A stretch of DNA of 64,000 bases, from the NCBI RefSeq assembly GCF_009914755.1, contig NC_060944.1. One strand, written 5' to 3'. Positions 26,666-39,367 of the stretch are shown in pieces. A program made the translations under genes and the position numbers. The number at the start of each line of letters is the position of its first letter. Position 1 is the first letter of the stretch. The notes beneath the pieces are model-generated. The model saw only the letters and a program-made list of their open reading frames with translations, was not told the origin of the DNA and ran no database searches. The DNA is from the human T2T-CHM13v2.0 reference genome, Homo sapiens.

Positions 26666-27070
<405 letters not shown>

Positions 27071-27836
27071 TCAGGCCCAGCTGCGCGGAGGGGCTGGCGG
27101 CCTCAACCGCAAGGAGAGGCCGCAGGTGGGGACGGCGGGAGGGAGAGAAGGGACTGAAGGCGCCGAGCAGGAGGAAGGTTTTGCGCGCACTCCCTTCTTC
27201 CCTAAGTGGAACCGGCAGTGGCAACAACGAGGCCGAAGGCGAAGTCCCTGCTCCCACCGCCGGCACGGTGACCCTTTTCCCAGGGTCACCCCCGAACCAA
27301 CAAAGCACACACACACCCGAGATGCGCCCCAGGCCGCAGCGCCAACCCCCCTTCAGATGTCCCGGAGACAGGCGAGCAGCGGTCCCCAGGGCTCCCGTCG
27401 CCACCGCTTCTCCCGCACCCCTCAGCCTCCTCGGGCCGGCGACGCGCGCAGCCCCAGGCCTGCTCCCCGCTCGCCAAGCGCACCGCCCCGCGCCTCAGCC
27501 ACCTTGACCGAGTCGCCCACGCGCGGGGGCGGCTCCGAGCGCCCATTTCCCATCCCCGAGGCCGAGGCTGGCCAGGCAGGTGCTGATGGGGAGCCTCGCG
27601 CCTGCGCGAGCCACCCTCGCCGCGAACTCTGCACAGCCCACGCCCTGGCCCAGCCTCGGCGCCTCCCCTCCGCCCACTGCCGCAGAACCGCACCCCCTCC
27701 CCCTCGGCAGCTTCCACAACGGCTCCGCCTCAACCGTCGGAAGCTTCTCGCCTGCCGGCTTGAAAGGCCAAGCCGAAGCCCCACCCTCCCTCCGCGCCCC
27801 GCCGTGGGGGAAGCCCACCCAGGCACTCTGCTCAAC

Positions 27837-27910
27837 CTGCCTGCGGCAGGAGGCGTCCGCGTAGTGTCGGTGGAGCCGCCCCCTATGCCGCCGAGCGTCG
27901 CAACTCTGCG
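27837..27910 (-). other. SYCP2: SYCP2 non-coding exon 1 (putative; TSS approximate)
   Basis: CAG|GTTGAG donor at 27837/27836, just downstream of the CCAAT pair on the minus strand. Confidence 0.55.
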
Positions 27911-28035
27911 CCTCAGGGACCGCCGCAGCGCCTCCGGCGAACGGCGGAAGGCGGGAAGCGCCCGTCCAATCCGCGCCAGGTGCGGTCGATAGTGCGTCCA
28001 ATCGGCGTCGCCGCCAGCCAGGTCCCGCCCCCCCC

Positions 28036-28125
28036 ATCCCCCCCACCCCCGCCAACGCTCGCCGGGGTCGCCCGAGGCCTGAGCCAAGGGGGACGCTGTG
28101 GGCGCGGCTCAGGCCAGGCCCTCAG
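28036..28125 (+). other. FAM217B: FAM217B distal non-coding first exon (putative; TSS approximate)
   Basis: CAG|GTTAGT donor after 28125; alternative donor TGG|GTGAGG after 28422. Confidence 0.45.
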
Positions 28126-29764
28126 GTTAGTGGGTCCCCGCTGTCCCCGCGCTTCGGCCCGTCCTCTCGCGCTATGCTCTCCTGATGAACGCCCCGCGAG
28201 CGGAGTCACCCCCGCCAGCGAGGAGACTCGCTGCCTTGACTGGGGCCCTGGTCCCGGGACAGGCGAGCAGGAAGGGATGGAAGGGACGGAAGCGCGGGCG
28301 GGACCAGGAGAAGCCCATCCCCGCGCTATGCGTCCCCAGAGCCACTGGGACCCGCGGCTCCAGCCAGCCCTGCAGGGGCGAGCTGGACCGGGGGACCAGG
28401 GCGCCGGGCCGACGACTCCTGGGTGAGGCCTGGCTCCTGCCGGCAGGGGGCGCAGGGCCGCCTGGGCTCCTGGGTGCGGGTGCCGGAGGGCGGGAGAGAC
28501 CGCAGGTCCGGAGACGGGGTGCTGAGCTGGGTACCCAACTGTGTATTCCTAGGCTCTTTCAGACGCTTCCATTTAAGAGATCCGTTTAACTTATGCAGCC
28601 AGCGGGTGCTTGTGTAAAAAATCGCAGGCCCTTCTGAGACAGGCACAGCCGCGAAAGGGTCTCCTTGCCCCTTGGCTCGCAGAGGGCGTCGGTGTTCGGC
28701 GCTCAGTCTTCTGCGTGTTTTCCCCGTGCTCGCGTTCTGAGATGGAAACTGTTCCACGTGCACTGAGATGCAGCTCGGTCTTTCTAACAGCTTCGTAATT
28801 ATTTAATCATGTGGATTAACTTCATCCGAGGAATTCAATCCTCCACTGATGAGCCTACACTTCTATTACAAATAATACTGCAGCAAACCACCTTTGGATT
28901 AATATTTGTGTCGGATCAATTTTTAAAAGTTGAATTGTATGTGTAGTTAAACTTTTATAGGTATCTTCAAATCAAAATTTAAAATTATATTTTAATAACA
29001 TTTTAATTTCTTATCTAAAAGGCACTAATTGTTTAAAAATATGGGATTAAGATTTAAATGTGCGGTGGAAAGCACCTGAAAAAAATAAACACAAGGTAAT
29101 AGAATCAAAGCTCAGTTGTGGACCAGAGCAGATCAAATCACAGTAAATAAGCTCTCAGAGGTGTTTTAAATATTCTGCTTAGCTAGAATTACCAACTTCT
29201 TGACAACTTTGTAACTACCCCCATTGAACTTAATTTTGATATCTTAGTTTTTTAATTCAGAGCTGACAGATTACATATGCAATCTAAGGTACACAGGTGT
29301 ACGCAGGGATTTGAGGGGATTTTATATGTTCAAAGCTTTCAATGCTTTTGAATTATACGTTTAAGTACTAATAATGTATAACACAAAATGTAAGAAGATC
29401 GAAGAGTGCTTCAAAATTGTGACCTGGCAATTTTGCATAATTATTTTCATACCTAGTTTTCCGCCAATAGATCTAAGATCCTTCATGGTGGAGTTGCGAA
29501 CGCACAGAAATTTTCCTAATACACTTCAAAAATTAATAGTGATGATTTTTTACCTTGCCGCTTTTTAGTTGAAGAAAAATGTTAGTCTTTTTTATTGCTT
29601 CATGTGTTCAGGAAGCCTGCGGATTATTTAGTAAACATCCGTAAACTACAACATGGAAGAAAAAAAGGATATCATTAATTTTACTGTTAATTTTTTTTAA
29701 AGGTTTTAGACCGTGGCATTTCATGAAAAACCTTCTCAATTATAATCAAAATTTGGAAACTATG

Positions 29765-30055
29765 TGCCGTGGTTCACACATATACTCCCTGCACTTTGGG
29801 AGGCTGAGTTGATGGGATTGCTTGAGGCCAGGAATTTGAAACTAGCCTGGGCAACATAGCTAGGCCCTATCTCTACAAAAAAACAAAATTAGCCAGGCGT
29901 GGTGGCATGTGCCTGTGCACCTAGCTGCTCTACGCCGGAGGCTGAGGTAGGAGAATTCTGCTTGAGCCCAGGAGCTGGAGGCTGCAGTGAGCTATGATTG
30001 CACCACTGCACTCCAACGTTGGTGACAAGGCAAGACCTTCTCTCAAAAAAGAGAA
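29765..30055 (+). mobile_element. AluJ-like element
   Basis: Diverged dimeric Alu. Confidence 0.85.
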
Positions 30056-30215
30056 ATATCATAATGTGGCGTTCAATTAATTTAGCTTTCTGAATCAACA
30101 AGCATTTATTTGCAATATTCTATATGTCATATAACAGGTAGAGAGAGCATTGACTTTGAAACAGGTTTCAATGTTCAATTTGTTACTTACCAGCTATGGG
30201 ACTTTAGGTGAATTA

Positions 30216-30551
30216 CAGTTATGTATTGCTTAATGATAGGGGTAAGTTCTGAGAAAGGTGTCCTCCTCAAGCAATTTTGTTATTGTGTGAATATCTTAGC
30301 GTTTACTTACAAAAACCTAGATGGTATAGCCTACTACACACCTCAGGTATATATAGTACAGTCTATTGCTTCAAGGCTGCAAACCTGTATACAGCATGTT
30401 ACTGCAGTGAATACGGTAGACAACTGTAACACAAGGGTATTTGTGTATCTAAACACAGAAAAGATACGGAAAAAAATCTGGTATAATTCCATGGATCCAC
30501 GTCATATATACAGTTACCCTGTTGAGTGAAATGTTATGTGGCCTATGGCTG
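30216..30551. mobile_element. Tigger3-like (TcMar) non-autonomous element nested in a MIR
   Basis: TA|cagttatg...tatggctg|TA termini; MIR-like sequence on both sides. Confidence 0.75.
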
Positions 30552-31120
30552 TACTTACACCACTCTGAGCTTTATTTTCAGCTAAGAAAAAGGGGATATT
30601 GTCTACCAGGTAGCATAACATTCAGAATTAAATGAAATCACATATTTAAAGCACTTAGCACTGTGGCCAAGCAAATAAGGGAAGACAAAATAAATGTAAG
30701 TTTTCTTCCCCCATGTGCAAGACTTTGTACTTAGGTGAGGGTCACGATCCGGAAGGCAGACAGACAGACACTCATTACTGCCTGCACAGTGTCATTAACT
30801 GTTGTAAGAGAAGTACATTAATGATCACATTCCCTGTATTCCCCTAGAGCTTTCTTCATACCTCATGCTGACCTGGCATATAAAATTGCATTTCCTTTTC
30901 TCAAAGACACATACAACAACTCTGCTACTGACGCTGAGGCACAATGACAAAATTTATTTTTGCCAAGGCTCTACGTTTATCAGTGTTGTAGAAAGGATAA
31001 GACTTGCATGTGAAATGATTTAGACAAGAAGTTTCTAAAGCTTGGTCTTCTGTAATTAGGCCACAAGAAAAACATACTGAAGCATAATAGAATGGCTCAC
31101 AACTGTTTTTGCACATATAC

Positions 31121-31126
31121 TTTAAT
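31121..31126 (-). terminator. PPP1R3D: Candidate PPP1R3D polyadenylation signal (ATTAAA)
   Basis: Hexamer ~2.2 kb after the stop codon, at the end of a repeat-free 3'UTR-like region; other hexamers exist nearby. Confidence 0.4.
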
Positions 31127-32261
31127 ACTTAGGCTTGGGTAAAATCATTTTAAATAACATATTAAAATATGTTTGGGGGGACAACCCAGCAATTGCACAG
31201 CCCACTAGAAAATTTTAACATCTAAGTAATATAACTGTTTTAGGGTCTGAAAGTTCTCCTTCAGTTGTTCCACAGCCTCTTTATCAACTAGGCAAATATA
31301 TTTAAGCTTTTAAATTTCATAATGTTGGTATTTTTTAAAAGGCACGGGAGGTTCACTTAATATTAAATATATAACATTCACTTTCATAACCAAAACCTTT
31401 TTGGCAAGTGACTTTCACATAGATTATGAGATTCTCTACATGCCTTAAAATAAATCTGGCAGCTCTTAACTCATATCTAAATTCTCTGGACAACTGTCTT
31501 GCTCTCTGTTTTGGGGCCAGGGGCGTAGCAGTGAAGGCCCTAACAGGCTTGCTGACCTAATTGGACAGTTTGTTAAATAGCAGGAAATGTAACAAGGCTT
31601 CTCTCTCTCTTGCATGTTAATGTAGTGAACAGTGCTAATAGCCAGAGATTGTGCAATTTAGTCACAATATTTCAAGCCAAAATTCAGTGTTCTTATATTA
31701 AAAGATACCGAAGAAAGCTATCCTTGTTCTTTGAATTATAAAAGCACAGAGGTTGCAATGATCAGAACCAAACTGGTTAAAAGCCGAAATGCATCCTTTC
31801 AGTATTGATTTGACAGATGCCAACAAGCATTCAAAAATTTAGAGTTAATTTCTTGGTGACAGGTAGCATAAAATTGATCAGACTGGTTTCAGCTGTATCA
31901 TAAGCTTCACAAATTGGAGATCTTGTCCTTCCTGGCTGTTTTTTTTTTTTTCCCACACCTTAATTCTAGCACCTGTTGTCAGACCACTGTTCAGCACCAA
32001 AAGAACTCCTCAGCCTGGAGTTCTTTGGAGTTTTAAGTGATTGCCTAACTCAGCAGGGGACAGTGGTCTTGACTTCTTGGTTGACGGTTTAAAAACATAA
32101 AAGAATTTTATATTTTAAAACTGACAAACTAGAAAATGTTAGAAACTCTATCTGAAGGCAGAAAGTATAAAGTTGGTGGGTACCTGATAAAACATGATGT
32201 ATGTAAATACAGTTCAAAACAATTTAAAAGTATAAATATTTGTCAATTATTTTTCCTCCAG

Positions 32262-32384
32262 TGCTCTGGCTATTGCTGAAAACACCTTCTAGTTCCACCT
32301 TGTAACTGGACTCCCAAAAGATGAATGCTGACATCTTCTGATGCTTAACAAGAAATAAAAATAGTCACCTTAATCATCAAAAAG
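32262..32384 (+). other. FAM217B: Putative FAM217B internal 5'UTR exon antisense to the PPP1R3D 3'UTR
   Basis: tttttcctccAG acceptor, AAG|GTAATT donor, 123 nt. Confidence 0.55.
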
Positions 32385-33303
32385 GTAATTGCAAAGGGCA
32401 CTGTTGCCTGAAATTCTCTAGTCACCTGAAAACTGAAATAACTGAGGCAAGACTTCTTAAAATGCTTAGTTTCAAACTTAAACAGAATGGCCTGATAATG
32501 ATCAAACATGTACAGAGAAATACATGAAATCAGAATTGTGAATGCAGAGAAATAACTGTTTTGCTAGTTTAAAAGTCTGAAGCTTTTCCCTCCTCCCCAG
32601 CTGTTAATGTAGGAGACACACAGCCTAACCAGGACAGTCTCAATGCCCAGGAATGGTTGTGTGATGACTGATAAAGCAGAAATTTCTTGCCTATTAATAG
32701 TTTCCCACTGTTAGAAGGCTACAGCCGTTGGCAATCAGATGTGGGCTCAGGTTTTCCTTATCCTGGGGCAGGAATGCCTGGAGGGACCACGATGTGGGTC
32801 ACACTGTACATTCTGTTTACTGTGGGCACAAACACAGAACTTTTTTTTTTTAGCTTATTAAATCGAGAATATTCCTGAGGAGGCATCCGCTATGGGCTAA
32901 AGGTCCCAACATCACAATAATAAATAACAGCTATGTTTACAGAGACACATTCAGGACACATGCAAAAGCTTTTCCTAGCAGGAGGACTTGGGCCTTTGCA
33001 AAACAAGCTGCTTGGGCCTCCCCAGAGGGCCCACCCTCCCATGCACCTACCCCACCACCCTGCCCCAACTCATTACACAACTCGGCCTTCTGGCCACCTG
33101 AGGCTACTTTTTAGACCAAGTGACTCAGACGTTTCAAGTAGAAGACAGGATGGGCCACTGCCAGGGGACCTTGCAGCAGAAAATTAGGTCAGAGGACTTG
33201 GAGGGTGGTGAAGAACAACCAGATAGATGTGAGAGCCCAGCAGGGAAATGACAGGAGGCGCAGCTTAGGTGTGGAGGCTCCAGGTGGCCGGTCCCCGCGC
33301 GGC

Positions 33304-34203
33304 TCAGATGAAGTGGATCCAGCTCTCTTCGCACTCCCCGCGAGGCATGTGCAGCGCGTGGTTGCGACATGTGAGGCTGTAGTCTCGGTGGTCGTTGTTG
33401 TCCCAGTACTCGGCACCCGCCACTTGGTAGCGCACCGCGAAGTGCACGCGGGAGCCGAGCTCCAGCAGGAAGGGCGGTACTGGAAAGCCGAAGGTGAAAA
33501 CGTCCTCCGTGCCCTCGGGGCCTGCGGGCCCGCGCCACCGCGCCACCGCCTCGTGGGTACTGCGCCAGCCCGAGAAAGTGTAGCGCACAGCCACCTGCTT
33601 CTCGAAGGCCACGTTGCACACGCGCACCGTACCGCTGATGCCAAGGTCCGAGCAAGTGACACGCTCCAGGCACACGAGCTGCCGCTGCAGGCGCTCGCCA
33701 AAGTCGGCGGCCTCGACGGGCGGCGGGAAATCGGGCACCAGGCAATGCAGGGTGAACTCCAGGTCCTGGCTGCTGCAGCACAGGTCCGAGTTGATTGCGA
33801 GCCGCGACAGCACGTGCAGCGGCACGGACGGGTCGTCTCCCGCGTTGAACACCTTGACCTGTGCCAGCTCCAAGCCCAGGGCGTCGGCGAAGCGCACGCG
33901 GAGCTTCTGGCTGCAGCCCGGCCGACACGCAGCGCCCGGCGCGCCCGCGGCCTTCTGGCGGCGCTCGGGGGAGCTGGGCAGTGAGCGCGCCCGCCGCAGG
34001 ATGATGGGCCGCAGGCGGGGGTCGCAGCCCGACGGCGCTGGCGTTGGCGGCGGCGCGCGGCCCGGGCTCCCAGGGGGCCTACAGGCCCGCGGCTCCAGGG
34101 CCACGCCGCCGTCCAGGTCCGACAGGCAGCTGAGGCTCCGGGGGCCGAGCTTCCGGGATCCCAGGGCGCTAGGCAGGACCGCGGAGCTCGGGCCTCTGGA
34201 CAT
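33304..34203 (-). CDS. PPP1R3D: Protein phosphatase 1 regulatory subunit 3D (glycogen-targeting R6), 299 aa, intronless
   Basis: gccATG at 34203 (MSRGPSSAVLP...); RVxF motif KLRVRFADALG; CBM21 motifs VCNVAFEKQV and YWDNNDHRDY; C-terminus SWIHFI. Confidence 0.97.
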   Translation of the reverse strand: MSRGPSSAVLPSALGSRKLGPRSLSCLSDLDGGVALEPRACRPPGSPGRAPPPTPAPSGCDPRLRPIILRRARSLPSSPERRQKAAGAPGAACRPGCSQKLRVRFADALGLELAQVKVFNAGDDPSVPLHVLSRLAINSDLCCSSQDLEFTLHCLVPDFPPPVEAADFGERLQRQLVCLERVTCSDLGISGTVRVCNVAFEKQVAVRYTFSGWRSTHEAVARWRGPAGPEGTEDVFTFGFPVPPFLLELGSRVHFAVRYQVAGAEYWDNNDHRDYSLTCRNHALHMPRGECEESWIHFI

Positions 34204-34659
34204 GGCCCCGCCGGCCGTCGGAAGATGAGGCAGGGATGAGAGACGACCTCCCGACCCCGCGACAGCTCCCTCCGTGCTCAGAAGCCGCAGAGAGTCCACC
34301 GTATCTGCAACCTGCGGGGGACCTCTCGGGCCCGGTGCGCCCTACCCTTGGTTCGCCACCTTGCTCCTCGAGTCCTTGTCCAGGTCCTCCGCTTCTTGCG
34401 GTTAAAGACATTGTAAGAGTGGGGAGTTTTTCTCTAGTGGAAGCTTTCAGAGGCCTCCCGGGAGCGCAGGGTAGCGCCTCTTTTTTCTTCTTGCTTCCTT
34501 GGAGGTTCTTACAAGAAGGCTGCGTTCCGGGAGCGGCCCCTCCCACTTTCCCGGTCCGCGGCGTTACTTACAAGGCTGCAACTTGACCGGGTGCAACTTC
34601 CTAGCGAGCCTCCGCCCCGCCCCTCGTGACGCCGCCTGCAGGCGGGCCCCCGCCGGCCT

Positions 34660-34807
34660 CAGCTCAGCCAGGGAGCTCAGCGGAGCTGCGCGCCTCCGCC
34701 TCCAGCTCCCCTGCCGCAGCGCGCCGCAGCCGGGCGTCCCCGCGCGGGCGCCGGAGAGGAAGGAAGGCTGGCAGCCTCGTCACGTGTCCGCTGCAGTCGC
34801 GAAACAG
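34660..34807 (+). other. FAM217B: FAM217B proximal first exon (TSS approximate)
   Basis: CAG|GTCTGA donor after 34807, divergent from PPP1R3D. Confidence 0.6.
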
Positions 34808-36469
34808 GTCTGATCAATTTCTGTTTACGTCTGCCTGGATTGCGCGCCTATCGATCATAGACTTTGTCTGCACAAACGGAGGACAAGGAAAATGCATGCT
34901 GCGTGTCCTTAGATTTCTGGGTTGTGGATGGGGGGAGCGGTGGTGCAAAAACCGGCCTTGCCAGGAGCTGGTCTCAGGCTAATTTTAAACATCGAGGCCA
35001 GCCCACACTTTGGACAGGTTCACTGCAACCTGGACCCTTGGTCAGACCGAGGGAGCCTCACTGCGTAGAGGAGCAGCGTCATGTCCACATCACCCAGAAT
35101 GCTTTGCCGCACCGAATGGCCAGCAGATTCCCTTGAGGGTGGGGAGGGGAGGTGCTGCTGTTGTCTTCCTGGACTCCGCGCCAGAGAGGAAGACAGGGGA
35201 ACAAGAGTTATTACCCGCTGATGACTTCTGCAGCTGCCCTTAATCAGCCTCTGGCGCTTGGGGAGCATATTTGTAGCCAGAATCTCCGACTTTTAGCTTT
35301 GTTTCCAAGCAAGCCAGAAACACCAGCAAGGCCTGGAGCTTGTTTTCTGCCTATTTAGAACCCTGCAGGCATTCGTGTCTCTCACCCGGTAGCTTTGAGC
35401 ACAAAACCCCACAGCCTTTGGTGTAAAGCATACCAGGTGAAATGAAGTAGAAAAGATGCAAGTGCACTTTCCAGAGAGCAGTTTGGGGCCAGCCATTCCA
35501 TTAAGAAGGTTCCTTTTTATTGTCCAGAGGGACAAAGCAGAAAGAAAACCAGACTAATGAAAGGGGGTTGATTCAAGAACATTCGTTGCATCTAAAATGA
35601 GTCAAGGCTGTTGATTGTGGTATAATTCATGAAATGTGAGAGAATGATTTTATTTATCATTGGATGTAAGCTAACTAAAAAGGCTTACATGATTATTGTG
35701 GGAAAAATACAGGAAAGTTTCAGGAAGAAAATAAAAATCTTCTATAATCATCTCTTTTATTTTACAGAGACAGGTGATACGGGAAAGAGAAGTATCCAAT
35801 TTCCATTCAGTGCACTTTTAATAGGCCACTCAAAATGAGAGGGGAATAACAGCAATATGTGGTATAGGTCAACAATGCTTCATAAAGAGATGATATATAA
35901 TATGTAATATGTATGAATATATGGAAAGTCTTATAATGGATTGATGTGATAGAGAAGGCCGAAAAATTGAATGGGAACGTTCCTCCTAGAGTTTAAGCTC
36001 CTTCTGAACAGGGACGTGCATAATCATTGCCATTTTTCTGGGTACTCCTGTAATTATTTGTTGCATGAATGAATGATTGGGCAATGCAATGATTGAACGC
36101 TGTAATAAGACCTGACCTTATTTAGCCTTCCAGATTTCTTCAACATATTATTTCCAAGGAAGATTATACCTGTGTGTGAACAGGGAGAGAGAGAGAGAGA
36201 TGGAATCCATTCACAGTATTTATAGTAGTGTGATCCTGTGATCCTGTCTCTAATATCTACTGTAATAAGCAGAAAAGACAAAGCTGTAAGCATAAGACAA
36301 TGTCTCCCTTCCCCAGTATTTCATAACCTAGAGTGCAAACCACTATATGATCACAGCCTTAATATTTCAATATTATACAAGTATTAAAAAACAAGTGAAA
36401 AACCAACCCGATACTGGTGGTAGGACCATTTGCAATCAATAGTTACTGACAGTATTCTGTTGCTTCTAG

Positions 36470-36581
36470 TTCCGGTGGTGAGGAGACCTTTCCAAATATA
36501 AGAGGAATAAAGAAGTCACCTCCCCAGCTGTCATCATCTTCCAGCAGATTGAGCAAGAATATTTTGAGCACTACAGGAAAG
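36470..36581 (+). other. FAM217B: FAM217B leader exon (112 nt)
   Basis: Branch-like actgac plus ttctgttgcttctAG acceptor; AAG|GTAATG donor. Confidence 0.8.
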
Positions 36582-36698
36582 GTAATGTAAACTTAGAAGA
36601 AAAATCTGACTTAGATTTATTCTGGGATTTTTGTTTGTTTGCTTGCTTGTTTCTTGTGTACATGTTCACAGTGTTTATTACTGCATCCCTGTTTTTAG

Positions 36699-36784
36699 AC
36701 AGTCCATCAAACCCGAGATGATGATCAGCCACGTGATTTTTTCAAGAAGAGGAATAGGGTGAATGAATCTCATCAGAAAAGCAG
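36699..36784 (+). other. FAM217B: FAM217B leader exon (86 nt)
   Basis: ccctgtttttAG acceptor; CAG|GTAAAT donor. Confidence 0.8.
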
Positions 36785-38215
36785 GTAAATAGTTTTAGTA
36801 TAATTGCTTTATCTTGCAAAAGACTCATTATCTCTGTTGTCCAGATTGAATATGTGGAGTGGGGAAAAAAGTATGTCTATAGATAAGAAATATACATTTA
36901 TAATTTTTTTCTAGCAGAAATGAATAGAAAAGTGGTTTAAGCATAATAGTGGATAAGGATTCCAACGGTCATAATTCTGGCAGTTGTTAGCAGAATTATA
37001 ATTTTGAGTAAGTCCTTTAATCACTTTTCTATGTTAGTTTCCTTTTATATAAAAGGATAGTGACAATAATTAATTTTTATGGATGCATACTGACAGGCAG
37101 GAACAAAATGTTTTAACAGTGTTATGAATTCTGAATAATGGAGATTCCTTCATTTCTTCATTTATTCAACATTTATTGAGCACACGTTGTACTATTGGCA
37201 ATGATTTAATGTCCTGCATATTTATTAATTAAAATGTAGCACGTATTCAAATAGTTGCTTAGGTTGTTTGAAACCACTGGGCAAATGAACCTCTGAAGTT
37301 TCCAGAAAGCATGTTTACCACCCATTTCTATTCATTCTATCTGACTTATATTACAGAGAAGTATTATTAATCTTAAATGCCACGTTCTTGGTAAATAAAT
37401 TGAAAAGAGGATATTTTCAACTCTGATGTGAGATTCAGCATCAGAATAAATTATGCCAGAGAGAATTAGTTTCTATACTCATAATGCACACAGTATTCAT
37501 TATTCCCTTTACCTGCTATTCACAAGGTAACACTAAGACCCTGTGTTTTCATTCATATGTGTTACAGGGCACCATATGATTTTATTTCTGTTCTTTAAAC
37601 ACAATTTTCCCAAATGTGTTTTCTGTTTGAAAACATTGTAACAAGCTTTTGATTTAAGGTACAGGTTTGTATGTGCAATACTTTTATATATTAAAATTTC
37701 ACTCAGCTCAGAATCGCCACCAATCAGTGATTAAACTGCAAAACTTGCATGTTTATTTGATATTTACACTTAATTTAAAATAGGTGTATAAAATAAAACT
37801 GTTTTTACTTCTGAATGTTATTAAATGCTTTTGATGGTAACAATTCCAGAGTTCTACGACTGATTTTTTCCAAACTAATGTTTTTTTTTTAAAGTACACA
37901 CGAAAGTATGAAACAAGCACTTTGAGAAATGTTAATGTTTTTCCTAAATGCTAATATTTGATATAAAATGGAAACTGTGCATTCTCTTTTGTCACATGCA
38001 TTATATAATGTATCTCAAATAGAGTATTATATGGGAAAATGTTCTGTAAAATTACTTATGCTTTAAGGAGTTTGGAAGCTGACATTTTCTAATGCCTACT
38101 AATAGCTGAGACAAAAAAAAGTACAACTAGAAGATTCTTTTTGTTTGTTTAATTATAGCCAGACCATTTTTTGTCATATGTGGTAAGAATTGCAGTTTTA
38201 TTTTCTCACAGCAAT

Positions 38216-39367
38216 ATGAATGCTGGCCCATCTTGGAATAAAGTGCAACATTCAAAGAATTCTTCAGGAAAAAGGCAGAGTAAATCCCAAGTACCCCACG
38301 CTTCTTCCCAGCCGAGAAGCAGCCTCACAGCTGTCACCCAGCCTACTGAAGAAAAACTTAAAGAAAGCATTTCCCCGGAAGCAAGACGCAAAAGGAATCC
38401 ACTCGGTTCCAGGTGTCAGGGGGCCTCAGGGAATAAACTGTTTCTTGATTTTCAGTCAATGAAAATTATTAAAGAGAATGCTGATGAGGACAGTGCAAGT
38501 GATCTCTCTGATTCGGAAAGAATTCCCATTCCTCCTTCTCCCCTCACACCTCCAGATCTCAATCTTCGAGCTGAAGAAATTGATCCAGTTTACTTTGATC
38601 TTCACCCTGGTCAGGGCCATACAAAACCTGAATACTATTATCCTAATTTCCTTCCATCCCCTTTCAGCTCCTGGGACCTACGAGATATGGCCCTGCTTCT
38701 GAACGCAGAGAACAAAACGGAAGCCGTGCCCCGAGTGGGAGGACTTCTTGGGAAGTATATCGATAGACTTATTCAGCTTGAGTGGCTGCAAGTCCAGACT
38801 GTACAGTGTGAAAAAGCAAAGGGGGGCAAAGCAAGGCCCCCCACTGCCCCTGGGACCTCAGGGGCACTGAAAAGCCCTGGGAGAAGTAAGCTAATTGCTA
38901 GTGCTCTGTCCAAGCCACTACCTCACCAGGAAGGGGCTTCAAAGTCAGGCCCTTCCCGAAAGAAAGCTTTTCACCATGAAGAAATCCACCCATCACATTA
39001 TGCATTTGAGACTTCCCCTAGACCCATTGATGTGCTTGGTGGTACCAGGTTTTGTTCTCAGAGGCAAACCCTTGAAATGAGGACAGAAGAAAAGAAAAAG
39101 AAATCAAGTAAGAGTACGAAGCTGCAGCGCTGGGATCTGTCCGGCAGTGGAAGCAGCTCTAAGGTGGAAACCAGCGGTCACATTCGAGTTCCCAAACAGG
39201 CAGCTGTGATTCTGGACTCAGCAGATTCCTGTAAGGCCTCCAAAACACAAGCACATGCACATCCTAGGAAAAAGGGAAAGGCAGAGAGCTGTGGTCATGC
39301 CACTGTATCGAGTGAGAAAAAACTGAAAACAAACGGAGTAAAGCAAAACACATATAAACTAAAATAA
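38216..39367 (+). CDS. FAM217B: Protein FAM217B (C20orf177), 383 aa; terminal exon begins at 38212
   Basis: ttttctcacAG|caatATG; MNAGPSWNKVQ...; core SDLSDSERIPIPPSPLTPPDLNLRAEEIDP, YPNFLPSPFSSWDL, KYIDRLIQLEWLQVQT recognised as FAM217-family. Confidence 0.95.
   Translation: MNAGPSWNKVQHSKNSSGKRQSKSQVPHASSQPRSSLTAVTQPTEEKLKESISPEARRKRNPLGSRCQGASGNKLFLDFQSMKIIKENADEDSASDLSDSERIPIPPSPLTPPDLNLRAEEIDPVYFDLHPGQGHTKPEYYYPNFLPSPFSSWDLRDMALLLNAENKTEAVPRVGGLLGKYIDRLIQLEWLQVQTVQCEKAKGGKARPPTAPGTSGALKSPGRSKLIASALSKPLPHQEGASKSGPSRKKAFHHEEIHPSHYAFETSPRPIDVLGGTRFCSQRQTLEMRTEEKKKKSSKSTKLQRWDLSGSGSSSKVETSGHIRVPKQAAVILDSADSCKASKTQAHAHPRKKGKAESCGHATVSSEKKLKTNGVKQNTYKLK

What the first reader, a model, noticed from the sequence alone, without database searches (positions are those of the whole stretch)
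34686..38218. FAM217B '5'UTR' is an uninterrupted in-frame extension of the CDS across three splice junctions: candidate non-AUG N-terminally extended proteoform
Seen: splicing 34807>36470-36581>36699-36784>38212 gives, in the FAM217B frame, ...GSLVTCPLQSRN-S-SGGEETFPNIRGIKKSPPQLSSSSSRLSKNILSTTGK-TVHQTRDDDQPRDFFKKRNRVNESHQKSSN-MNAGP... with no stop and no in-frame AUG. The two AT-rich internal exons alone give about 67 stop-free codons (about 4% by chance with equal codon use), and their Ser/Lys-rich composition resembles the rest of the protein. In-frame near-cognate starts: CTG 34686 (G at -3; +108 aa), ACG 34782 (G at -3; +76 aa), CTG 34791, GTG 36759 (A at -3). The extension adds a basic KKRNR patch. 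Inference: these exons are coding (non-AUG start) or are a decaying ancestral N-terminus. It may already appear in non-AUG extension catalogues; I cannot check.
Basis: partly seen in the sequence, partly recalled or inferred. Interest (0 to 1): 0.8.

Follow-up and report, generated by a model that had tools for sequence, protein, structure and literature searches.

The report
FAM217B leader holds ancestral coding exons
Two exons labelled as untranslated leader in human FAM217B are the old front end of the protein, still read as protein in many other animals; whether humans still translate them without a normal start codon is an open question that was already raised in print in 2011.

Summary
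The 349-nt leader of NM_022106 is open in the CDS frame for 116 codons, with no stop and no AUG.

On its own this is weak: dinucleotide shuffles leave exons 2-3 open 3.8% of the time.

The real evidence is comparative. The 68 codons of exons 2-3 match annotated N-termini of FAM217B in lemur, elephant, carnivores, bats, rodents, marsupials, a crocodilian and a bird at 35-81% identity.

The ancestral AUG exon ("MGPG...") survives in human intron 1 only as a broken remnant.

On the human branch, exons 2-3 changed no faster than the annotated CDS: 5/68 against 41/381 residues.

So they are ancestral coding exons. Either they are still translated from a near-cognate codon, or they lost translation recently. 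I could not separate these two readings.

The candidate is already catalogued. Fedorova et al. 2022 list FAM217B among 28 non-AUG extensions predicted by Ivanov et al. 2011 and still unannotated. It was not found in their supplementary files other than 6 and 9, in the addendum's 177-gene table, or in a 2024 supplement on translated 5'UTRs.

Verdict: real, ordinary, already known as a prediction.

The parts
34602..34604 (+). First in-frame stop (TAG) upstream of the leader. It bounds any extension.
34661..34807 (+). Exon 1 (75% GC), open in the CDS frame. Only its last ~17 codons (GRKAGSLVTCPLQSRN) match the pig and fox annotated N-termini in the same frame.
34686..34688 (+). In-frame CTG (G at -3, C at +4), mRNA position 26. 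Would add 108 aa. No comparative support for the frame here.
34782..34784 (+). In-frame ACG (G at -3, T at +4), +76 aa. It lies inside a CACGTG hexamer.
34791..34793 (+). In-frame CTG (C at -3), +73 aa.
35442..35566 (+). Broken remnant, in intron 1, of the ancestral AUG-bearing coding exon ('exon 1b'). ATG at 35442, then TAG 35448 and TAA 35502 in frame. Two frame changes relative to the bat protein. The last 21 codons (EGSFLLSRGTKQKENQTNERG) are 81% identical to Pteropus. A GT at 35567 keeps the phase needed to join exon 2. It is not an annotated human exon.
36470..36581 (+). Exon 2, annotated 5'UTR. It encodes SGGEETFPNIRGIKKSPPQLSSSSSRLSKNILSTTGK, homologous to annotated CDS in other amniotes.
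36498..36500 (+). In-frame ATA (A at -3, A at +4), +58 aa. It sits at mRNA position 176, which corresponds to 'nte_find 175' given for the Ivanov 2011 extension in the MANE transcript. The start-codon assignment is my inference.
36699..36784 (+). Exon 3, annotated 5'UTR. It encodes TVHQTRDDDQPRDFFKKRNRVNESHQKS, homologous to annotated CDS in other amniotes.
36718..36762 (+). uORF 1 in the +1 frame, starting at tandem ATGs 36718 and 36721 (MMISHVIFSRRGIG, then stop). Its TGA abuts the next ATG.
36759..36761 (+). In-frame GTG (A at -3, A at +4), +10 aa. It aligns to Met in 24 cluster representatives and is the annotated start in 16 of the 121 examined (marmoset, murids, pangolin, Myotis and others).
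36763..38219 (+). uORF 2 in the +1 frame (MNLIRKAAI, then stop), spliced across intron 3 (36763-36784 + 38212-38219). Its stop overlaps the annotated ATG as ATGA.
38216..39367 (+). Annotated CDS, 383 aa. The Pfam FAM217 domain covers aa 95-327. The start ATG has A at -3 and A at +4.
   Evidence: hub annotation

Best explanation
Exons 2 and 3 of human FAM217B, annotated as 5'UTR, are the ancestral N-terminal coding exons of the protein.

**Ancestral state.** In the amniote ancestor, translation began at an AUG in an upstream exon (peptide MGPG...RGTQKKEN...) and ran through these two exons into the large last exon. On the lineage to human that AUG exon decayed to a pseudo-exon in intron 1, and no other in-frame AUG replaced it. 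The 68 codons nevertheless stayed intact and kept changing at the pace of the annotated CDS.

**Most likely mechanism (inferred, not shown).** Some scanning ribosomes start at an in-frame near-cognate codon in the leader. Candidates are ACG 34782, CTG 34791 or CTG 34686 in exon 1, and AUA 36498, the site I infer was the one proposed in 2011. This would make a longer proteoform of about 441-491 aa. Ribosomes that pass these codons meet three out-of-frame AUGs in exon 3 (two short abutting uORFs). They reach the annotated AUG only by leaky scanning or re-initiation, giving the 383-aa form.

**Shown:** homology to coding sequence, loss of the AUG exon, an intact frame, and the human-branch rate.

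**Inferred:** that the human leader is translated at all, and from which codon.
For: - **Cross-species homology.** Human leader aa 49-116 align to annotated FAM217B N-termini: Microcebus 81% over 68 aa, Halichoerus 78%, Lynx 77%, Loxodonta 72%, marsupials 57-63%, Gavialis 37% (E 4e-10), Porphyrio 35%. In several species this is higher than their identity over the annotated CDS (Lynx 57%, Halichoerus 55%, Monodelphis 51%).
- **How other species start.** Of the 121 cluster representatives examined, 27 contain the exon 2+3 peptide, 25 a partial extension, 16 start at a Met aligned to human GTG 36759, and only 38 start at the human Met.
- **The human Met is not conserved.** At that column there is Met in 78, another residue in 27, a gap in 1, and 15 are not aligned.
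- **Ancestral start.** 'MGPG/MGPD/MGPI' is shared by seven unnamed representatives (P0122, P0124, P0125, P0148, P0153, P0182, P0188) and by marsupial isoforms, and lies at residue 13 of the Gavialis model.
- **Internal control.** The human remnant of that exon has 2 stops and 2 frame changes, whereas exons 2-3 have none.
- **Human-branch rate.** Parsimony gives 5/68 changes in the extension against 41/381 in the CDS (Fisher p = 0.52).
- **Neutral-decay simulation on these 68 codons.** At 0.11 substitutions per site, the frame stays intact in 4.5% of runs, the mean is 13.8 residue changes, and 5 or fewer changes occur in 0.3% of runs.
- **No AUG available.** There is no in-frame AUG back to the stop at 34602, nor from the alternative first exon 28051-28125.
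- **Independent prediction.** Ivanov et al. 2011 made the same call, as listed in Fedorova et al. 2022, Supplementary Data 3.
Against: - **No sign of translation found.** FAM217B turned up in none of the Fedorova 2022 supplementary files I searched apart from the Ivanov comparison (file 6) and an HPA-localisation table whose header I did not see (file 9). I assume, without having checked, that the Ribo-seq and PhyloCSF sets lie in the other files. It is also absent from the 2024 addendum's 177-gene PhyloCSF set and from the supplement of the 2024 NAR paper on translated 5'UTRs.
- **Still unannotated.** RefSeq RS_2025_08 (hub table) and GENCODE v35 do not annotate the extension, although 24 of Ivanov's 59 genes were annotated.
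- **Weak start signals.** No candidate near-cognate codon has both a purine at -3 and G at +4, and none has an unusual downstream hairpin.
- **Some lineages have dropped it.** The horse-family and guinea-pig proteins begin 'MMVSHVIFFKK' / 'MMINHVIFFKK'. That is the +1-frame AUG joined to the CDS frame at the T-run, so the exon-2 peptide appears to have been dropped there.
- **Human-branch changes hit conserved positions.** Three of the five (E85G, L92R, C98R) fall at positions nearly invariant in other eutherians.
- **The rate test has limited reach.** It loses force if the AUG was lost recently: at 0.03 substitutions per site an intact frame (41%) and 5 or fewer changes (74%) are unremarkable. 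The neutral distance of about 0.11 for the human branch since the lemur split is recalled, not computed here.
Confidence: 0.48

Rival explanations
1. Relic N-terminus. After the AUG-bearing exon was lost, exons 2-3 became a true 5'UTR in the human lineage. The frame is still open only because too little time has passed. The only product is the 383-aa protein from AUG 38216, held down by the two uORFs.
For: - There is no AUG in frame.
- FAM217B was not found in the supplementary files searched for Ribo-seq, PhyloCSF or peptide lists.
- The extension has remained unannotated since 2011 (hub table).
- Near-cognate contexts are weak.
- Horse and guinea pig show the exon-2 peptide is dispensable.
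- Human-specific changes fall at conserved residues.
- For a loss within about 0.03-0.05 substitutions per site, the simulation gives an intact frame in 24-41% of runs and 5 or fewer changes in 29-74%.
Against: - The human-branch change rate in the extension (5/68) is not higher than in the CDS (41/381).
- Exon 1b in the same locus has visibly decayed while exons 2-3 have not.
- Primate and colugo models of 382-383 aa (Aotus, Carlito, Propithecus, Otolemur, Galeopterus) suggest that an AUG-less major transcript is old. If so, an intact frame needs selection. This step is an inference from annotation, not from their DNA.
Confidence: 0.4
2. The extension is translated in human, but from an ordinary AUG in an unannotated alternative first exon spliced to exon 2. 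Many other mammals have such 'isoform X1/X2' models, each with its own first exon.
For: At least eight different AUG-bearing N-terminal exons are joined to exon 2 in other species: Microcebus, Loxodonta, Heterocephalus, Saccopteryx, Mustela, phyllostomid bats, Lepus, and marsupial/bird 'MK..KEC'. This shows frequent turnover of first exons.
Against: - tblastn of these N-termini against window 27001-36480 found only the broken exon 1b and an intron read-through with stops. The one hit for the lemur exon is a chance match in a T-run.
- The two other RefSeq first exons give no in-frame AUG: 28051-28125 is open but AUG-less, and 32262-32384 has stops.
- Short or human-specific first exons, or exons lying outside the window, would be missed.
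Confidence: 0.08
3. Chance open frame in a non-coding leader, conserved (if at all) for RNA-level reasons.
For: Shuffles leave exons 2-3 open 3.8% of the time. Exon 1 is open 80% of the time because of its GC content.
Against: Protein-level homology to annotated coding N-termini extends from lemur to crocodilian and bird. Different AUGs are used and no stops occur in 27 representatives.
Confidence: 0.02

Closest known systems
[quoted passage not shown] 2011 (NAR 39:4220; PMC3105428). FAM217B is itself on that list, according to Fedorova et al. 2022, Supplementary Data 3.
   Same: An in-frame upstream ORF without AUG, bounded by an upstream stop and conserved as protein between species. There are out-of-frame AUGs between the putative start and the annotated AUG, a pattern described for half of their candidates (section read).
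   Different: Nothing in kind: this is the same candidate. My additions are the broken ancestral AUG exon in intron 1, the non-conservation of the annotated Met, and a human-branch rate test. I could not see their Table 1 entry (rank, Ka/Ks, start codon). The AUA 36498 start is inferred from an index in the 2022 table.
Human FNDC5, where ATA stands in place of the ATG of other species (described in Ivanov 2011, section read).
   Same: The ancestral AUG was lost on the primate or human lineage while the upstream coding sequence stayed intact. Whether the long form is made is disputed.
   Different: In FNDC5 the change is a point mutation at the start codon itself, and specific to humans. In FAM217B the whole AUG-bearing exon is broken and skipped, and many eutherians share an AUG-less major transcript. 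A review of FNDC5 (PMC8284618) mentions FAM217B together with 'non-AUG' (listing only). I could not read the passage.
PTEN-L and other CUG-initiated long proteoforms (mentioned in Fedorova 2022, section read).
   Same: A long N-terminal extension made from the annotated 5'UTR by near-cognate initiation alongside an AUG-initiated form.
   Different: Those have direct experimental proof and a defined start codon. FAM217B has neither.

Membership tests
[quoted passage not shown] | An in-frame ORF upstream of the annotated AUG, with no in-frame AUG, closed by an upstream stop. | tested here: met
   116 open codons in the mRNA. The genomic in-frame stop is at 34602. There is no in-frame ATG between 34602 and 38215.
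[quoted passage not shown] | The extension evolves as protein-coding sequence across species. | tested here: met
   Met at protein level only. Identity to annotated N-termini is 35-81% across amniotes, and 27 of 121 representatives carry the peptide. Codon-level Ka/Ks or PhyloCSF could not be run because no orthologous DNA was available. FAM217B is absent from the 177-gene PhyloCSF set.
[quoted passage not shown] | The frame is maintained on the lineage that lacks the AUG (human/primates). | tested here: inconclusive
   The human-branch rate is 5/68 against 41/381 in the CDS. The simulation rejects neutrality only if the AUG was lost at a distance of 0.08 substitutions per site or more. No primate DNA was available, and no primate other than Microcebus has an annotated extension.
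[quoted passage not shown] | A conserved near-cognate start codon in a favourable context. | tested here: inconclusive
   Ten in-frame near-cognate codons were examined. None combines a purine at -3 with G at +4, and none has a distinctive downstream hairpin. Codon conservation is not testable without orthologous DNA.
[quoted passage not shown] | Direct evidence of translation (initiating or periodic ribosome footprints, N-terminal or internal peptides, protein size). | not testable with these tools
   Literature look-ups found none: supplements; FAM217B + Ribo-seq: 0 papers; peptide strings: 0 papers. Paper reading closed before other ribosome-profiling supplements could be checked.
FAM217 family (Pfam PF15344) | A match to the family model above its gathering score. 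| tested here: met
   The human CDS scores 351.8 bits, E 3e-105, over aa 95-327. In the long orthologues the domain starts at aa 177-218, so the extension lies outside the model.
uORF-controlled mRNA | AUG-initiated short ORFs upstream of the main AUG. | tested here: met
   ATGs at 36718 and 36721 give a 14/13-codon uORF. ATG 36763 gives a 9-codon uORF that ends on the main ATG. Any regulatory effect was not tested.

The most novel reading that the evidence does not exclude
The main human FAM217B product is the long form, started at a near-cognate codon. The annotated AUG, which sits behind three out-of-frame AUGs and is not conserved as Met in a quarter of orthologue clusters, is a secondary start. 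The gene would then be a worked example of how a protein keeps its N-terminus after its AUG exon dies: repeated start-codon turnover across mammals (new AUG first exons, an internal AUG at the GTG 36759 position, a frameshift capturing a +1-frame AUG in horse and guinea pig) and near-cognate initiation in primates.
Probability: 0.3. Interest if true: 0.5.

Novelty: already known. Interest (0 to 1): 0.3.

Why it matters
If the long form is made, the reference protein for FAM217B (383 aa) lacks about 60-110 N-terminal residues. These include the block FPNIRGIKK...LSKNI...DDDQP.DFFKK, which is conserved from marsupials to primates. In that case variants in chr20 'UTR' exons 2-3 would be coding variants.

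The case also warns about non-AUG predictions based on conservation. Here the cross-species coding signal can be explained entirely by AUG-initiated isoforms in other species, so it does not prove non-AUG initiation in human.

The gene itself is poorly studied. The 62 papers that name it look like omics lists, judging from the 30 listed.

Tried and rejected
- **Search with the bat N-terminus** (P0118 aa 1-106): 11 hits, all already seen, no further primates.
- **Search with the exon-2 peptide.** A 40-aa query (window 36462-36581) restricted to longer proteins gave 5 hits and no primates. So a primate-by-primate view was not possible.
- **Lemur first exon (MKERYSGKEHFPHLN) in human.** The only hit (31950-31967) is a chance match after a T-run, with no ATG and no donor. 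Rejected.
- **Alternative RefSeq first exons.** 28051-28125 joined to exon 2 is open but has no ATG back to the stop at 27761. 32262-32384 has stops in frame.
- **Downstream hairpins at near-cognate codons.** None stands out. The only z below -2 is at CTG 34791, which has a poor context.
- **Retrocopy as a fossil of the old mRNA.** Exon 2 DNA matches only itself in the human assembly.
- **Paralogue in the own genome.** P0153 matched only FAM217B exon 4, so no comparison with FAM217A was made.
- **Literature.**
  - C20orf177: 9 papers, none on translation by title or abstract.
  - FAM217B + Ribo-seq: 0 papers.
  - FAM217B + non-AUG: 1 paper, listing only.
  - Leader peptides as strings: 0 papers.
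  - The main text of Ivanov 2011 does not name the gene. The body of its Table 1 is not held, and its supplement could not be searched.


Full report
**Observation.** I spliced the four RefSeq exons from the window. All junctions are GT-AG. The leader is 349 nt. The other two frames carry 6 and 5 stops. Going upstream in the genome, the frame closes at TAG 34602, with no in-frame ATG on the way.

**Is it more than chance?** On its own, barely.
- In 20,000 dinucleotide-preserving shuffles, exons 2-3 stay open in 3.8%, the whole leader in 3.0%, and GC-rich exon 1 in 80%.
- The simple estimate (61/64)^67 is 4.0%.
- An event of that size is expected in many human genes.

**Orthologues settle what the exons are.**
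- A search with the annotated 383-aa protein returned 303 relatives. I examined the 120 listed. Many are longer than 383 aa: lemur isoform X2 495, elephant X1 475, several carnivores, bats and rodents, six marsupials 474-499, gharial 506, takahe 472.
- Human leader residues 49-116 (exons 2-3) align to these annotated N-termini: Microcebus 81% over 68 aa, Halichoerus 78%, Lynx 77%, Loxodonta 72%, marsupials 57-63%, Gavialis 37% (E 4e-10), Porphyrio 35%.
- In several species the extension is better conserved than the rest of the protein. For example, Lynx is 77% in the extension against 57% overall, and Monodelphis 60% against 51%.
- I placed all 121 sequences in hand on the human coordinates:
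  - 38 start exactly at the human Met.
  - 16 start at a Met aligned to human GTG 36759.
  - 27 contain the exon 2+3 peptide.
  - 25 have a partial extension.
  - 15 are truncated or divergent.
- At the column of the human start Met there is Met in 78, another residue in 27 (Ile 9, Val 8, Thr 6, Leu 2, Lys 1, Gly 1), a gap in 1, and no alignment in 15. In those 27, including murid rodents, translation must begin upstream.
- Exons 2-3 are therefore ancestral coding exons. Pfam's FAM217 model covers only aa 95-327 of the human protein, so the extension lies outside the known domain.

**Where the ancestral start was, and what became of it.**
- Marsupial isoforms begin MGPGMKDC..LPRGTQKKENQT. The Gavialis model has the same MGPG start at residue 13.
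- A full HMMER search of 1.84 billion representatives with the gharial protein (102 hits) found seven unnamed proteins that begin MGPGIQ.., MGPDI.. or MGPI.. at the same place.
- A bat (Pteropus) and a porcupine model also read this exon.
- tblastn places its human counterpart in intron 1, at 35442-35566.
- The last 21 codons (EGSFLLSRGTKQKENQTNERG) are 81% identical to the bat. The GT at 35567 would join exon 2 in the right phase.
- However, the ATG at 35442 is followed at once by TAG 35448. A second stop lies at 35502. The middle part is shifted in frame relative to the bat. The codon where sauropsids and marsupials have the MGPG Met reads TTT.
- It is not an annotated human exon. The AUG-bearing exon is dead in human, while exons 2-3 next to it are untouched.

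**Other routes to an AUG in human gave nothing.**
- The RefSeq alternative first exon 28051-28125 is open into exon 2 but has no ATG back to a stop at 27761. Exon 32262-32384 has stops.
- The species-specific first exons of lemur, elephant, mole-rat and bats have no convincing human counterpart within 27001-36480. The one lemur hit is a chance match.

**Exon 1.**
- Only its last ~17 codons (GRKAGSLVTCPLQSRN) match pig and fox N-termini in the CDS frame.
- Further upstream, the pig protein (and partly fox and marmot) matches the human +1 frame.
- Together with the 80% shuffle figure, this means the +108-aa form from CTG 34686 has no comparative support.
- ACG 34782 lies within a CACGTG hexamer. 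Conservation of 'LVTCP' could therefore be a DNA-level effect.

**Is the human copy still under protein-level constraint?**
- I aligned human with 23 of the 27 extension-bearing sequences. I left out the partial Pteropus, Erethizon and Apodemus models, the two sauropsids and the 135-aa fragment.
- Departures from the eutherian consensus are 6/58 in the human extension and 24/245 in the human CDS, a ratio of 1.06. Species in which the extension is annotated as coding range from 0.24 to 2.86.
- Three-taxon parsimony (human, Microcebus, 16 non-primate eutherians) puts 5 of 68 changes on the human branch in the extension (S55T, N74S, E85G, L92R, C98R) against 41 of 381 in the CDS (Fisher p = 0.52).
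- A neutral-decay simulation on these 68 codons, by distance in substitutions per site:

| Distance | Frame intact | Mean residue changes | 5 or fewer changes |
|---|---|---|---|
| 0.11 | 4.5% | 13.8 | 0.3% |
| 0.05 | 24% | 6.9 | 29% |
| 0.03 | 41% | 4.3 | 74% |

- The figure of about 0.11 for the human branch since the lemur split is my recollection, not a result.
- The exons were therefore under constraint for most of primate history. A loss of translation within roughly the last third of that branch cannot be excluded.
- Three of the five human changes hit residues almost invariant elsewhere. That fits some relaxation.

**Leader architecture.**
- Three out-of-frame ATGs lie between the candidate starts and the annotated ATG.
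- 36718 and 36721 open a 14/13-codon uORF whose TGA abuts ATG 36763.
- That ATG opens a 9-codon uORF, spliced across intron 3, whose stop overlaps the annotated ATG (ATGA).
- Ribosomes already elongating in the CDS frame would ignore these ATGs. Scanning ribosomes would not.
- No near-cognate candidate has an optimal context or a notable downstream hairpin.
- In the horse family and guinea pig the annotated protein starts with the +1-frame Met-Met and continues in the CDS frame after the T-run. The exon-2 peptide appears to have been dropped there.

**What is in print.**
- Fedorova et al. [quoted passage not shown]
- The index given for the MANE transcript (175) corresponds to mRNA position 176, the in-frame ATA at 36498, 58 codons upstream. 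This assignment is my inference.
- For Ivanov et al. 2011 (PMC3105428) I read the abstract and section 12, and searched the main text, which does not name the gene. Table 1 is not held and the supplement could not be searched.
- FAM217B occurs in no other searched file of Fedorova 2022 except a localisation table whose header I did not see. It is not in the 2024 addendum's 177-gene PhyloCSF list, nor in the supplement of the 2024 NAR paper on translated 5'UTRs.
- No paper's main text combines FAM217B with Ribo-seq.
- One FNDC5 review (PMC8284618) combines FAM217B with 'non-AUG' (listing only).
- Paper reading closed, so other ribosome-profiling supplements remain unchecked.

**Reading.**
- It is firmly shown that exons 2-3 are the ancestral N-terminal coding exons, that the ancestral AUG exon is broken in human, and that no AUG replaces it in the annotated transcripts.
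- It is not shown that the human leader is translated.
- I put near-cognate initiation at about 0.48, a recently silenced relic at about 0.40, an unannotated AUG first exon at about 0.08, and chance at about 0.02.
- The candidate has been in the literature since 2011. The finding is real but already known as a prediction, and it is still unproven.

Noticed in passing
window 35442-35566: A pseudo-exon in FAM217B intron 1. It is the remnant of the ancestral AUG-bearing coding exon, with two in-frame stops and two frame changes relative to the bat protein, and a phase-compatible GT at 35567.
   Followed up: yes
window 36718-36784 and 38212-38219: Two short +1-frame uORFs arranged head to tail. 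The stop of the first abuts the ATG of the second (TGAATG). The stop of the second overlaps the annotated ATG (ATGA).
   Followed up: partly
window 36737-36742 (T-run in exon 3); proteins P0009 and P0021: The horse-family and guinea-pig FAM217B models start at the +1-frame Met-Met and then continue in the CDS frame after the T-run. This implies a 1-nt length difference there that captures a new AUG and drops the exon-2 peptide. Their DNA was not seen.
   Followed up: partly
window 34780-34785 and 36730-36735: Two CACGTG hexamers (E-box-like). One is in exon 1 and overlaps the candidate ACG start. The other is in exon 3. No test of function was made.
   Followed up: no
window 36375-36469; proteins P0085, P0105, P0121: Carnivore models and one unnamed fragment start at an ATG in sequence that corresponds to the human intron just upstream of exon 2. 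The human counterpart has stops in that frame.
   Followed up: partly
protein P0001 (Gorilla isoform X1, 397 aa); window 36763: This predicted isoform begins MNLIRKA, which is the ATG of human uORF 2, joined to the CDS by a different splice. It is probably a model artefact.
   Followed up: no
protein P0045 (Mus mCG54925, 465 aa); window 36431-36478: This old mouse model reads exon 2 and the intron before it in a different frame from all other orthologues. It looks like a mis-prediction.
   Followed up: no
protein P0066 (378 aa, source ena): It is 100% identical to half of human FAM217B and is fused to a phage-integrase N-terminal domain (PF02899). It looks like a cloning chimera in a public record.
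   Followed up: no
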